Source: Candidatus Heimdallarchaeota archaeon (GTDB lineage Archaea; Asgardarchaeota; Heimdallarchaeia; JABLTI01). Taken from it: DNA of 64,000 nt. The translations under genes were made by a program, and so were the position numbers. The stretch is from the NCBI GenBank assembly GCA_018238155.1, contig JABCTZ010000003.1:128001-192000 (forward strand), in the 5' to 3' direction. Positions 47,492 through 60,484 of the stretch are shown here, piece after piece. Under the pieces are notes generated by a model, which saw only the letters and a program-made list of their open reading frames with translations, did no database searches and was not told the DNA's origin. Within the stretch, counting starts at the first letter, position 1, and the number at the start of each line of letters is the position of its first letter.

Positions 47492-47507
47492 TTTAGCTAT
47501 TTTAAAA
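47492..47507 (+). promoter_or_regulatory. TTTAGCT-TATA promoter element (TTTAGCTATTTTAAAA)
   Basis: Exact consensus copy upstream of the XPD-like gene. Confidence 0.65.
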
Positions 47508-47540
47508 GAAAACCTGTACTAGCATCTATAGTAGATCTAA

Positions 47541-49379
47541 TTGCTAGGGATTGATATTAGCTTGAATTTAGGTTCTGGAAAAAAAACTTCATCGGATTCC
47601 ATATTTTGGCAAAGAATGAATGAAATATTCCCATATCCAGCATATCGAAAAGAGCAATTTTCAATTATATCAGCAATTCAAAATGAATCTAACAAGACAT
47701 TGCTTATTGATGCAGAAACAGGGAGTGGAAAAACTGCTGCTGTTCTCTCTGCGGTATTGAGCAGAAAACAACCAGGAGAACGAATAGTAATTTTTACTAA
47801 AATGCTTAGTCAAATGGATGCCTGGTTTAGAGAATTAGGAAAGATTAACGATTTTAACAAAAAAATTGGTAATCCGATATATACAATAGTTCCACTTATC
47901 GGGAAAAGCCATGTCTGTTCATTGGTAACTCGAGAGACAAAAAAACAATTCGCTCAACTGGGGTGTGCCTTATTTGAATGCCCATATAATAAAGCGTTTC
48001 ATATTATAAAGGCACAAGAAAGTTCAGAATTGTTCTCAGCAAGAATTGCTAGAGAACTTGGTGAACATATCAAAATTGGTGTTGGATTATCTGAAGTACT
48101 GTGGACCTTGGAGAACAAAATAGAAAATTTCGGTTGTTCATATCTTGCACTTAAATGTGCATTAAATCAAGCTGATATAGTTATTACAACATATCCTTTT
48201 CTTTTAGAACCTGGATTACAAGAAATGTTATTTGAGAATATGTCACTAGATCTTAGAAATGCAACACTAATCGTGGATGAAGCACATAATTTAGCAAAAG
48301 GTGCAGTGGGAAGTTTAACATATCGAATGGTTGAACGTGCGATTGCTGAAATAGGACAAAATGAGATTTTAGATCAATTGTTGGATCTAAGAATGGAAGA
48401 GGGGTTACATACACTTAGTTTAGATGAAAATCTAGTGAAGGATCTAGAAAATAGAGGTAGACAATACCTCCTTTGGAGATTTGATAATGGGCACCGAGAA
48501 ATAAGCTATACATTGAAGGTAAGTGAATTTCTGAGAAGAGTAAATTATTGCTATTTAACCGCAGAAAAGAGATTCACACTTTTCTTGAAAGACCCAAGAA
48601 CAATTCTCAATTCAGTAAAACCTTCAAAACAGATAATACTTATGTCAGGCACTTTTCGCCCCTTGAATCATTTCGCAGATTTTCTTGGGGTAGCAAATGC
48701 CCATAAAGTTTCTGTACTCTCAGAAAAATTAAACTGTAATAGATTAATTTTAACAACAAGTGATTCTGAGTTAACGATGAAATATAACAAAAGATCAAAA
48801 GAGCTTTTTATCAAATATGGTGAAACCATAAAACAGCTTGCAGAAAAAATTCCCGGACATTCACTAGTCTTTACTCCAAATTATGAAGTTTCAACCATTA
48901 TTTCAACTTTAGTCGACACAGAATATTTTGAGAGACCTAATCAAGATGTTTCTAAATTGATTTCAGCAGTTACTTCAAGCAAAAAGAAAGTCATTCTTGT
49001 TGCTCCTGCAAGAGGAAAAGTATCTGAAGGTGTTGAATTTGTGAAAAATGATCGCTCTCTTATCTCCGCAGTTATAATTGCTGGGTTACCCTATCCTCCT
49101 CCTTCAAGATCTTTAAAAGAAATTACTAAAGAATATAGCAAATTTTGGGGTGAAGAGAAAGCAACACATTATATGAATTATCTCCAAGCTGCAGTAACAA
49201 TGAGACAATGTTTGGGGAGAATGTTGCGCTCAGAAAATGATATTGGCGCATGGATAATTCTTGATAATAGAGTTAATAATATGAATATCTTCCCAAGATC
49301 GATTGAATGTAAAAATACCGCTAGAATGTTGGAAAGATTGATTTTCTTTTTCAGCCAACATGAAATGATTTGCAAGTAA
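47541..49379 (+). CDS. XPD/Rad3/DinG-family Fe-S helicase
   Basis: FPY..YR..Q, ETGSGKT, four Cys in the Fe-S region, DEAHN, MSGT, SEGVEF, GLPYP, Q.LGR..R; exact start uncertain. Confidence 0.92.
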   Translation: MLGIDISLNLGSGKKTSSDSIFWQRMNEIFPYPAYRKEQFSIISAIQNESNKTLLIDAETGSGKTAAVLSAVLSRKQPGERIVIFTKMLSQMDAWFRELGKINDFNKKIGNPIYTIVPLIGKSHVCSLVTRETKKQFAQLGCALFECPYNKAFHIIKAQESSELFSARIARELGEHIKIGVGLSEVLWTLENKIENFGCSYLALKCALNQADIVITTYPFLLEPGLQEMLFENMSLDLRNATLIVDEAHNLAKGAVGSLTYRMVERAIAEIGQNEILDQLLDLRMEEGLHTLSLDENLVKDLENRGRQYLLWRFDNGHREISYTLKVSEFLRRVNYCYLTAEKRFTLFLKDPRTILNSVKPSKQIILMSGTFRPLNHFADFLGVANAHKVSVLSEKLNCNRLILTTSDSELTMKYNKRSKELFIKYGETIKQLAEKIPGHSLVFTPNYEVSTIISTLVDTEYFERPNQDVSKLISAVTSSKKKVILVAPARGKVSEGVEFVKNDRSLISAVIIAGLPYPPPSRSLKEITKEYSKFWGEEKATHYMNYLQAAVTMRQCLGRMLRSENDIGAWIILDNRVNNMNIFPRSIECKNTARMLERLIFFFSQHEMICK

Positions 49380-49398
49380 AAATTGATTTTTCTTATCA

Positions 49399-49414
49399 TT
49401 TAGCTCTTTTAAAG
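49399..49414 (+). promoter_or_regulatory. TTTAGCT-TATA promoter element (TTTAGCTCTTTTAAAG)
   Basis: Exact consensus copy upstream of the large surface-protein operon. Confidence 0.65.
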
Positions 49415-60363: not shown

Positions 60364-60413
60364 TTATTTCCTCTCGAGAGGTTCATTTCCTCAATATATA
60401 ATCCAAAGTATTG

Positions 60414-60429
60414 TATTTAAGCAGCTAAA
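60414..60429 (-). promoter_or_regulatory. TTTAGCT-TATA promoter element (TTTAGCTGCTTAAATA) for hef
   Basis: Exact consensus copy on the minus strand about 50 nt upstream of the hef start. Confidence 0.65.
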
Positions 60430-60468
60430 TTTTGATTTAATGTTTCTTCTAAAGTTCGATTTCTTGTG

Positions 60469-60484
60469 TTTAGCTACTTAAAAA
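60469..60484 (+). promoter_or_regulatory. TTTAGCT-TATA promoter element (TTTAGCTACTTAAAAA) for the HerA/VirB4-like gene
   Basis: Exact consensus copy, back-to-back with the hef copy. Confidence 0.65.

What the first reader, a model, noticed from the sequence alone, without database searches (positions are those of the whole stretch)
47492..60484. Shared non-canonical promoter box TTTAGCT-N-YTTWAA defines a candidate DNA-recombination regulon
Seen: four exact copies, all intergenic, correctly oriented and about 35-55 nt before a start codon: 47492 (XPD-like), 49399 (Ig-protein to RadB-like operon), 60414-60429 minus (hef) and 60469 (HerA/VirB4-like). Variants occur at 3661, 20903 (RadA-like) and 26420-26435 minus (SWIM-helicase operon). 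The box occupies the BRE position, which is purine-rich at ordinary promoters here (GGGAAAAG-TTAAAAA at 1187, GTAAAAAT-CTTTAAA at 3439, CCTAAAA-TTTATAAA at 18154). A rough independent-base estimate at 30% GC gives about 0.1 expected exact copies in the window, though the motif was defined after the fact. Known: in Sulfolobales the alternative factor TFB3 drives a DNA-damage regulon that includes DNA-transfer genes. Inference: an alternative TFB or activator co-induces recombination and cell-surface genes in this Asgard lineage.
Basis: partly seen in the sequence, partly recalled or inferred. Interest (0 to 1): 0.88.

Follow-up and report, generated by a model that had tools for sequence, protein, structure and literature searches.

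The report
Shared TTTAGCT promoter box, Heimdall archaeon
A short DNA word (TTTAGCT) sits directly in front of the TATA box, where this Asgard archaeon normally has an A-rich element. It marks about a dozen conserved promoters that link DNA-repair genes (XPD-like, Hef, RadB-like) to membrane, surface and glycosylation genes, so it looks like a real regulon signal, but its reader protein and its trigger are unknown.

Summary
The window has four exact copies of TTTAGCTNYTTWAA, against 0.11 expected. All are intergenic and point at the next gene. A fifth copy lies 179 nt past the window end, so 5 of the genome's 16 copies fall within 17 kb.

The box is under selection. It is kept at the same five promoters in every genome of the family that I examined, including the sister genus, while the flanking DNA has diverged. 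A matrix built only from relatives ranks the five sites 1, 2, 4, 5 and 14 among 8.2 million positions.

Unlinked conserved members are a small protein (window 3683-4039), an alpha/beta-hydrolase-like protein and a 9-TM membrane protein. A GT2 glycosyltransferase, an epimerase and a 103-aa protein are partly conserved. Copies before Kae1, HMG-CoA reductase and an SSB-like gene are not conserved.

The regulon reading is therefore supported. It mixes repair genes with surface and glycosylation genes rather than being a pure recombination set.

An alternative TFB is the less likely reader. The divergent TFB paralog keeps the same DNA-reading helix across the whole class, but the box occurs in one family only. 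A lineage-specific factor acting at the BRE position fits better.

No RNA data could be found. This scan reached the same reading earlier on another genome (e1-5394838).

The parts
47490..47516 (+). Promoter box before the XPD-like helicase: cA-TTTAGCT-A-TTTTAAAA-GAAAA
   Evidence: Exact match and sequence. Conserved as ATTAGCT-G-TTTTAAAAGAAAA in G005. It scores 25.2 bits with a matrix built from relatives only.
47541..49379 (+). XPD/Rad3-like SF2 helicase (612-aa ORF; the true start may be the TTG at 47562)
   Evidence: Pfam DEAD_2 and Helicase_C_2. TIGR00604 rad3 at 3.7e-44, below that model's cut-off. Ortholog alignments begin near residue 22.
49397..49423 (+). Promoter box before the Ig-protein operon
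   Evidence: Exact match. It is the top genome-wide hit of the relatives-only matrix, at 31.5 bits. In relatives the word is TTTAGAGC or TTTAGACC at the same place.
49431..57950 (+). Five-gene operon: 1704-aa Ig-domain surface protein, 377-aa and 259-aa unknown membrane proteins, a Yip1-like 5-TM protein, and a 228-aa RadB-like RecA-fold protein
   Evidence: ORFs abut or overlap. Pfam Big_3_5 and Big_1, weak Yip1, and Rad51. TIGR02237 radB at 1.1e-24, below cut-off. TM segments. The operon is syntenic in four relatives.
57955..60363 (-). Hef: SF2 helicase plus ERCC4 nuclease plus HhH2
   Evidence: Pfam DEAD, Helicase_C, ERCC4 and HHH_5. Orthologs are 66-72% identical in the genus.
60405..60431 (-). 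Promoter box before hef, divergent from the next box
   Evidence: Exact match. TTTAGCTG-YTT-AATACA is kept in all nine other family genomes that have the locus. 27.2 bits.
60467..60493 (+). Promoter box before the 1034-aa protein
   Evidence: Exact match. Conserved in G001, G003, G005-G010. A conserved GAGG ribosome site and a TTG/GTG start lie about 40 and 50 nt downstream.
60519..63623 (+). 1034-aa family-restricted protein. Its core resembles HerA/DUF87/TrwB/CedB P-loop ATPases, but GEPNARRN stands where the Walker A motif should be
   Evidence: No Pfam, NCBIfam or PDB sequence match. Atlas feature scores of 0.91-0.95 to DUF87/HerA/CedB clusters. Found in 11 of 11 family genomes and, apart from one weak hit, not elsewhere in the class. 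The AF2 model is poor, with pLDDT 55.
63634..64000 (-). 162-aa gene (runs to window+122) with a PD-(D/E)xK-like IDVAA...IEVENG motif. It lies inside the island but has its own promoter, not the box
   Evidence: Translation. No family match. Conserved between the 1034-aa gene and the 271-aa gene in relatives. The nuclease-like reading comes from the sequence alone.
3659..3685 (+). Variant box (AA-TTTAGGT-C-TTTTTAAA) before a 106-118-aa conserved protein
   Evidence: 19.0 bits. TTTAGGT or TTAGGT is kept before the ortholog in G005, G007, G010 and G011, and TTTGGGT in G006.
3683..4039 (+). Small conserved protein p118 (four beta strands then a long helix)
   Evidence: 63-79% identical in relatives. 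AF2 gives a bbbb-alpha topology at pLDDT 58. Only weak PUR-alpha/Whirly-type fold matches, E 0.2.
20853..20859 (+). TTTCGCT word before the RadA-like gene. It is a one-letter relative of the box, and membership is doubtful
   Evidence: CAAATAAAnTTTCGCT is shared by G000, G005 and G006, and reads TTTAGCT in G010. The matrix gives no score there.

Best explanation
The box is a lineage-specific promoter class of one Heimdallarchaeia family. At these promoters the usual A-rich BRE is replaced by (A)TTTAGCT. The invariant core is TTAG, 4-5 nt before the T-run of a consensus TATA box (YTTTWAAA), and the ordinary A-rich stretch follows the TATA box.

Shown:
- The word sits at a fixed place next to the TATA box.
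- It is the only non-A-rich word enriched at that place.
- It is kept by selection at the same ten or so operons across two genera.
- Five of these operons form one 17-kb island: the XPD-like gene; the Ig-protein operon ending in the RadB-like gene; Hef; the HerA/CedB-like 1034-aa protein; and a 6-TM protein.
- The other members are unlinked: a small bbbb-alpha protein, an alpha/beta-hydrolase-like protein, a 9-TM GT-C-like protein and, less strictly, a GT2 transferase, an epimerase and a 103-aa protein.

Inferred:
- The operons are co-regulated by one sequence-specific protein that reads TTAGCT at the BRE position.
- That protein is most likely a family-specific factor rather than a general TFB.
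- It most likely acts as an activator that recruits or replaces TFB contacts at promoters lacking a good BRE, as EarA and TFB-RF1 do at weak-BRE promoters.

The signal that triggers it is unknown.
For: Enrichment and placement:
- 4 copies in the window against 0.11 expected.
- 12 of 16 genome copies lie in the 15% of the genome that is intergenic, and 5 lie within 16.7 kb.
- TTTAGCT ties for the commonest 7-mer in front of YTTWAA in promoter zones.
- TTAGCT followed by 1-2 nt and a TATA-like box occurs 15 times in 0.38 Mb of promoter zone against 26 times in 6.9 Mb of coding DNA, a 10.4-fold excess. It is the only non-A-rich word in the top 40.

Conservation:
- Positions 1-4 (TTAG) are identical in 21 of 21 orthologous sites from five genomes, while the flanks are not conserved.
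- The box is kept in all family loci fetched, including the sister genus.
- A matrix from relatives only ranks the five G000 sites 1, 2, 4, 5 and 14 of 8.16 million positions. Fifteen of the 20 hits at 18 bits or more are in promoter position.
- Ortholog tests are positive for p382 (5/5), p480 (3-4/4) and p118 (5/5), and partial for GT2, the epimerase and p103.
- 19 control upstream regions (SSB-like, Kae1, HMGR, RadA-like) all scored 5.4 bits or less.

Against a general factor:
- Hef and XPD-like homologues in four other families lack the box.
- In three genomes of other families, 11 of 19 exact copies lie inside open frames, against 3 of 16 in G000.
- Both TFB types nevertheless occur class-wide.

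Precedent: activators at weak-BRE promoters are described in PMC5512572 and PMC5937170.
Against: - There are no transcript data, so neither promoter activity, transcription start distance nor co-expression is shown (one search gave no runs).
- No candidate reader protein was identified.
- The site lies on the BRE itself rather than upstream of it, where EarA and TFB-RF1 bind. A repressor or a TFB is therefore equally compatible with the geometry.
- The site is not a palindrome, which is unusual for dimeric archaeal regulators.
- Membership beyond about ten operons is uncertain. The matrix also scores T-rich promoters that have a consensus TATA and A-run but no TTAG.
- My gene calls are home-made.
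Confidence: 0.55

Rival explanations
1. The box is an alternative BRE read directly by the second TFB paralog (TFB-B, C6:17301-18293). That paralog would then drive this gene set as a general-factor-based regulon.
For: - The word occupies exactly the 6-7 bp before TATA, where TFB's C-terminal helix-turn-helix binds.
- The genome has two full-length TFBs and one TBP.
- TFB-A has the same recognition helix as Pyrococcus TFB (VTEVTVRNRY), which fits the A-rich BRE of most promoters.
- TFB-B differs at four helix positions (TTPVTLRNRF) and has a conserved C-terminal tail.
- TFB paralogs with their own gene sets are known in Sulfolobus (bioRxiv 10.64898/2026.09.06.749720).
Against: - The TFB-B helix is identical in all six families sampled and the paralog is class-wide.
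- Yet the box is absent before Hef and XPD-like homologues outside the family.
- The word behaves like a random word in G016, G026 and G022.
- A set of 10-20 promoters is small for a paralog that is 88-95% identical within the genus.
Confidence: 0.17
2. The box is the operator of a repressor that covers the BRE and TATA box. The repressor keeps the set silent until a signal such as DNA damage removes it, a LexA-like logic.
For: - Conservation runs without a break from the word through the TATA box and about 10 nt beyond, which is the length of a typical footprint.
- Archaeal repressors commonly bind over BRE/TATA (established knowledge of MDR1, LrpA and TrmB-type regulators; not tested here).
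- Repair genes are in the set.
Against: - The TATA box and the A-run are also conserved at promoters that lack TTAG, so they need no operator to explain them.
- That leaves only 6-7 specific bases with no dyad symmetry.
- If a good BRE lay under the operator it should look A-rich, and it does not.
Confidence: 0.18
3. There is no common regulation. The similarity reflects promoter copies inherited within one gene cluster plus chance matches elsewhere in an AT-rich genome.
For: - Five of the best sites are neighbours.
- The relaxed motif is not enriched.
- The tested exact copies before housekeeping genes are not conserved.
Against: - The specific word is retained across two genera while adjacent intergenic bases have diverged.
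- Unlinked loci on other contigs keep it too.
- A generic promoter here would use an A-rich BRE.
Confidence: 0.07

Closest known systems
Sulfolobales DNA-damage regulon: Orc1-2 bound to the ANTTTC element in ups, ced and tfb3 promoters, with TFB3 as co-activator (PMC6061795, PMC6101591)
   Same: - A short asymmetric word in the core-promoter region marks a small set of operons.
- The set joins DNA-handling proteins with surface structures and a HerA/VirB4-type ATPase (CedB).
- It is lineage-restricted.
   Different: - The word differs (TTTAGCT, not ANTTTC) and lies strictly at the BRE position.
- No pilus genes, CedA homologue or Orc1-2-type regulator was linked to it here.
- Induction by damage is unknown.
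- A TFB3-like truncated TFB was not identified. Only one 78-aa stand-alone Zn-ribbon ORF was seen.
Activators at weak-BRE promoters: EarA at the fla promoter of Methanococcus maripaludis (PMC5512572) and TFB-RF1 of Pyrococcus furiosus (PMC5937170)
   Same: Promoters with a good TATA box but a non-consensus BRE that depend on a sequence-specific protein binding next to it.
   Different: - EarA and TFB-RF1 sites lie upstream of the BRE. Here the conserved word is the BRE position itself.
- Those factors control one or a few operons, while this word marks ten or more.
TFB-paralog regulons: TFB2 cell-cycle set in Sulfolobus acidocaldarius (bioRxiv 10.64898/2026.09.06.749720) and the multiple TFBs of haloarchaea
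   Same: A distinct promoter class within one genome, alongside two TFB paralogs with different DNA-reading helices.
   Different: - In Sulfolobus the TFB2 and TFB1 BREs look alike and differ in spacing. Here the sequence itself differs.
- The phyletic range of the box (one family) is narrower than that of either TFB (the whole class).

Membership tests
Archaeal BRE (TFB-recognition element) | Lies in the 6-7 bp immediately 5' of the TATA box at a fixed spacing | tested here: met
   TTAGCT plus 1-2 nt precedes YTTTWAAA in all 21 orthologous sites and in 15 promoter-zone sites genome-wide.
Archaeal BRE (TFB-recognition element) | Purine/A-rich consensus, as at the bulk of promoters in the same genome | tested here: not met
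   tRNA promoters read GAAAG-N-TTTAAAA. A-rich words dominate the position. TTTAGCT is T-rich with a G and a C.
Archaeal BRE (TFB-recognition element) | Bound by the C-terminal helix-turn-helix of a TFB | not testable with these tools
   Only indirect evidence is available. The TFB-B helix is invariant class-wide, but the box is found in one family only.
Sulfolobales DDR element (Orc1-2 / ANTTTC) | Hexanucleotide ANTTTC in the promoters of damage-induced genes | tested here: not met
   The conserved word is TTTAGCT. AATTY after the TATA box is variable and belongs to the general A/T-rich stretch. The motif is as given in PMC6061795.
Sulfolobales DDR element (Orc1-2 / ANTTTC) | Induction by UV or NQO, and dependence on Orc1-2 and TFB3 | not testable with these tools
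   No RNA run was listed and no culture exists.
Regulon (a set of operons sharing one cis-element under selection) | The same element is conserved upstream of orthologs in several genomes, at linked and unlinked loci | tested here: met
   All five island promoters in up to ten relatives. p382, p480 and p118 on other contigs or 44 kb away. Negative controls were flat.
Regulon (a set of operons sharing one cis-element under selection) | Co-expression, or binding by one factor | not testable with these tools
   No transcript data.
Ced/Ted-type DNA import system (for the island as a whole) | A VirB4/HerA-family ATPase with intact Walker motifs, plus VirB6-like CedA and a VirB2-like pilin | tested here: inconclusive
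   The 1034-aa protein resembles DUF87/HerA/CedB only by language-model features. It has no HMM match. It has GEPNARRN in place of GK[ST] and folds poorly. No CedA or pilin homologue was tested.

The most novel reading that the evidence does not exclude
The box may be the switch of a Heimdallarchaeia counterpart of the Sulfolobales damage-induced DNA-exchange programme. In this reading one family-specific factor turns on several things together: repair enzymes (Hef, XPD-like, RadB-like), a degenerate HerA/CedB-like ATPase with membrane partners, a giant Ig-domain adhesin, and the glycosylation enzymes that decorate the cell surface. That would mean cell-cell contact and DNA uptake for recombinational repair in a close relative of the eukaryotic ancestor.
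Probability: 0.2. Interest if true: 0.85.

Novelty: new variant of a known kind. Interest (0 to 1): 0.55.

Why it matters
My literature searches found almost nothing on how Asgard archaea regulate transcription, and no cis-regulatory element or regulon described for them. This box is a concrete, testable handle:
- It is a 7-nt word with a defined position.
- It has a defined set of about ten conserved target operons.
- It has a sharp phyletic boundary.

It can be used as bait to fish out the reader protein from recombinant candidates, namely the two TFBs and family-specific DNA-binding proteins. It can also be used to read metatranscriptomes for the inducing condition.

The target set ties FANCM-like Hef, XPD and a RecA-family paralog to surface and glycosylation genes. 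That gives functional context to several family-restricted proteins of unknown function.

Tried and rejected
- RNA evidence: the look-up of sequencing runs on 54500-64000 listed no run of any kind.
- Generic promoter model: a simple EM run collapsed to a low-information A...T pattern. I used tRNA upstream regions and word counts instead.
- Core word alone: TTTAGCT is not enriched in upstream regions as a whole, at 1.03x. Only its juxtaposition to a TATA box is.
- Exact 14-mer hits in relatives outside the island are mostly in coding or non-promoter context, so the 14-mer is too loose as a regulon probe.
- The matrix also scores promoters without TTAG, so I inspected the core by eye in every ortholog test.
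- Three paralogous wHTH proteins carry box-like promoters. I considered them as auto-regulated readers. They were found in only 1 of 5 relatives, so they cannot serve the conserved set.
- CTAG-rich stretches after the box in G000 are not kept even in an 87%-identical relative, so I dropped them.
- A1034 structure: AF2 on a 10-sequence alignment gave mean pLDDT 54.7, so no fold search was run on it.
- p118 structure: pLDDT 58. The best Foldseek rows were PUR-alpha at E 0.2 and TM 0.36. This is a lead only.
- Rfam found nothing in the three-copy repeat.
- Reading the box on the opposite strand: rejected, because every copy then lies 100 nt or more from any start codon and XPD has no divergent partner.
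Full report
**What is in the sequence**

The pattern TTTAGCTNYTTWAA occurs four times in the window, at 47492 (+), 49399 (+), 60416-60429 (-) and 60469 (+). 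Dinucleotide shuffles predict 0.11 copies and never gave more than one. With up to two mismatches the pattern is no longer enriched (27 found, 32.4 expected), so the signal lies in the near-exact word.

Each copy is intergenic and points at the next gene, 31-66 nt before the called start.
- an XPD/Rad3-like helicase;
- a 1704-aa Ig-domain protein heading a five-gene operon that ends in a RadB-like protein;
- Hef (helicase, ERCC4 nuclease, HhH);
- a 1034-aa protein with no family match.

The window is contig C21:128001-192000 of a 4.08-Mb, 46-contig genome with 33% G+C. Its nearest public relatives are cold-seep MAGs labelled Candidatus Heimdallarchaeota.

**Whole genome**

There are 16 exact copies genome-wide. 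Twelve lie in the 15% of the genome that is intergenic by my own gene calls, and eight are within 150 nt upstream of a same-strand gene. A fifth clustered copy lies 179 nt beyond the window end, before a 271-aa six-TM protein. So 5 of 16 copies sit within 16.7 kb. By a simple scan-statistic estimate of my own, that has a chance probability of about 1e-5.

**How the box compares with ordinary promoters**

Upstream of tRNA genes the promoters read GAAAG-N-TTTAAAA or similar. A-rich words such as AAAG, AAAA and CAAA are 3-6-fold enriched 5-7 nt before TATA-like boxes in promoter zones.

I ranked all 6-mers that are followed by 1-2 nt and a TATA-like box, by promoter-zone versus coding frequency. 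The top 40 are A-rich with one exception: TTAGCT, with 15 promoter-zone occurrences against 26 in all coding DNA on both strands, a 10.4-fold excess. TTTAGCT also ties for the commonest 7-mer before YTTWAA. On its own it is not enriched upstream of genes, at 1.03x.

**Conservation**

The whole neighbourhood is syntenic in same-genus genomes, at 40-72% protein identity. It comprises the XPD-like gene, the Ig-protein operon, Hef, the 1034-aa protein, a 162-aa gene on the other strand, the 271-aa membrane protein and a 266-aa gene.

I anchored the five intergenic regions of five genomes on the box. TTAG is identical in 21 of 21 sites and CT in 18 of 21. The TATA box and the following A-run are nearly invariant, while flanking columns are not conserved. 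The three exceptions are the Ig-operon promoters of relatives, which read TTTAGAGC or TTTAGACC.

More loci show the same boxes in G001, G003, G009 and G010. The sister genus (G011) keeps the one before the 271-aa gene.

As an unbiased test I built a 27-column matrix from 12 sites of three relatives only and scanned both strands of G000. The five island sites rank 1, 2, 4, 5 and 14 of 8.16 million positions. Fifteen of the 20 hits at 18 bits or more lie in promoter position.

**Membership beyond the island**

For each other G000 candidate I fetched the ortholog in five relatives (four of the genus, one of the sister genus) and looked upstream.

| Candidate | Result in relatives |
|---|---|
| 382-aa alpha/beta-hydrolase-like protein | TTAGCT in 5/5, 16.6-21.9 bits |
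| 480-aa nine-TM protein with a GT-C-like first loop | TTTAGCT in 3/4, TTTAGAAG in the fourth |
| Small protein at window 3683-4039 | TTTAGGT or close in 5/5 |
| GT2 transferase | partly conserved, 2/4 |
| NAD-dependent epimerase | partly conserved, 1-2/5 |
| 103-aa helical protein | TTTAGAGC at -45 to -47 in three relatives, TTAGAAC in a fourth |
| SSB-like protein, Kae1, HMG-CoA reductase | not conserved; with the RadA-like gene, all 19 regions at 5.4 bits or less |

- The RadA-like 'variant' at 20903 coincides with the start codon. The conserved upstream word there is TTTCGCT at 20853-20859, which reads TTTAGCT only in G010.
- The SWIM-operon variant keeps the TATA box and A-run in relatives but not TTAG.

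- Conservation upstream of orthologs is met for about ten operons.
- The tested exact copies before housekeeping genes are not conserved.
- Distance to transcription starts could not be tested.

**What the set encodes**

- Three members are DNA-repair proteins (XPD-like, Hef, RadB-like).
- One is a degenerate P-loop protein. By language-model features it resembles DUF87/HerA/TrwB/CedB ATPases at 0.91-0.95. It has no HMM or PDB sequence match, and GEPNARRN stands where the Walker A motif should be. It is restricted to this family: 11 of 11 family genomes besides G000, and essentially none elsewhere in the class.
- The rest are an Ig-domain surface protein, several membrane proteins, glycosylation enzymes, a hydrolase and small unknown proteins.

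The theme is DNA repair plus cell surface, not recombination alone. It recalls the Sulfolobales programme in which Orc1-2 and TFB3 switch on Ups pili and the Ced DNA importer after DNA damage (PMC6061795, PMC6101591). That comparison is by analogy only.

**Who reads the box**

The genome has one TBP and two full-length TFBs.
- TFB-A matches Pyrococcus TFB strongly (224 bits). It has the identical recognition helix VTEVTVRNRY.
- TFB-B is more distant (150 bits). Its helix reads TTPVTLRNRF and it carries a conserved C-terminal tail.

This is what an alternative-BRE model would predict. However, TFB-B orthologs occur in all 83 class genomes searched, and its helix is identical in the six families sampled. 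The box, by contrast:
- is absent upstream of Hef and XPD-like homologues in four other families;
- shows no excess over a reversed-pattern control there;
- falls mostly inside open reading frames there, 11 of 19 copies against 3 of 16 in G000.

The box is thus narrower than either general factor. I therefore favour a family-specific DNA-binding protein acting at the BRE position. It is most simply an activator that compensates for the missing A-rich BRE, as EarA and TFB-RF1 do at weak-BRE promoters (PMC5512572, PMC5937170). A repressor or TFB-B remain possible, and none of the three can be excluded by sequence analysis.

I found no candidate reader:
- The three wHTH paralogs with box-like promoters are not conserved in the family.
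- The small conserved member p118 folds as four strands plus a helix, with only weak PUR/Whirly-type matches.

**Standing**

The element and its conservation are shown. Co-regulation, the reader protein, the sign of regulation and the trigger are all inferred. An earlier follow-up in this scan, on another genome, described the same box and reached the same reading (e1-5394838). My results agree with it and were obtained independently here.

Noticed in passing
G000 C41:243505-243800 (L028:105-400), C20:140690 (-) and C10:33609 (+): A repeat of about 250 nt is present in three copies. Each copy carries a box-like promoter (CATTTAGAGCTTTAAATACC) followed by a conserved stretch of about 150 nt with a GC-rich hairpin and a T/A run. 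It could be a small RNA or a mobile-element end. There is no Rfam match, and the fold z-score is -2.8.
   Followed up: partly
G000 C6:42650, C43:10008, C13:168220 (genes L018, L008:363-1031, L022): Three paralogous wHTH proteins of about 200-230 aa (40-47% identical) each have a TTTAGCT/TTTAGCA-TATA promoter followed by TTTTTGTC. TTTGTCG/CGACAAA is itself 3-fold enriched upstream of genes. The family was found in only one of five relatives.
   Followed up: partly
window 60368-60379 (-): The hef leader contains the 12-nt perfect palindrome CCTCTCGAGAGG, which overlaps the GAGAGG ribosome-binding site 6 nt before the TTG start. CTCGAG-type words recur near several box promoters in relatives.
   Followed up: no
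window 20845-20859 (+): CAAATAAAnTTTCGCT is conserved upstream of the RadA-like gene in G000, G005 and G006, and reads TTTAGCT in G010. It is a one-letter relative of the box with a different TATA spacing.
   Followed up: partly
G000 C6:17301-18293 (L034:1135-2130): The TFB paralog has a divergent recognition helix (TTPVTLRNRF) and a conserved C-terminal tail (VKRGAAATPVY..DPYKF). It lies directly upstream of an RFC small-subunit gene. Helix and tail are conserved across all six families of the class that I sampled.
   Followed up: partly
G000 C41:172931-173032 (-) (L171): A stand-alone 78-aa ORF with a TFB-type zinc ribbon scores at the Pfam cut-off (28.7 bits). It is a possible truncated TFB-like protein.
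   Followed up: no
window 63634 to window+122 (L058:4619-5104, -): A 162-aa protein sits between the 1034-aa gene and the 271-aa gene. It has a PD-(D/E)xK-like pattern (IDVAAVKGD...IEVENG) and no family match. It is conserved in relatives and uses its own TTGTAGTTTTATA promoter.
   Followed up: partly
window 3683-4039 (+): A small box-driven protein, 63-79% identical across the family, is predicted as four beta strands plus a long helix. That is the topology of PUR/Whirly/PC4-type single-strand nucleic-acid binders, but the model confidence is low and the fold matches are not significant.
   Followed up: partly
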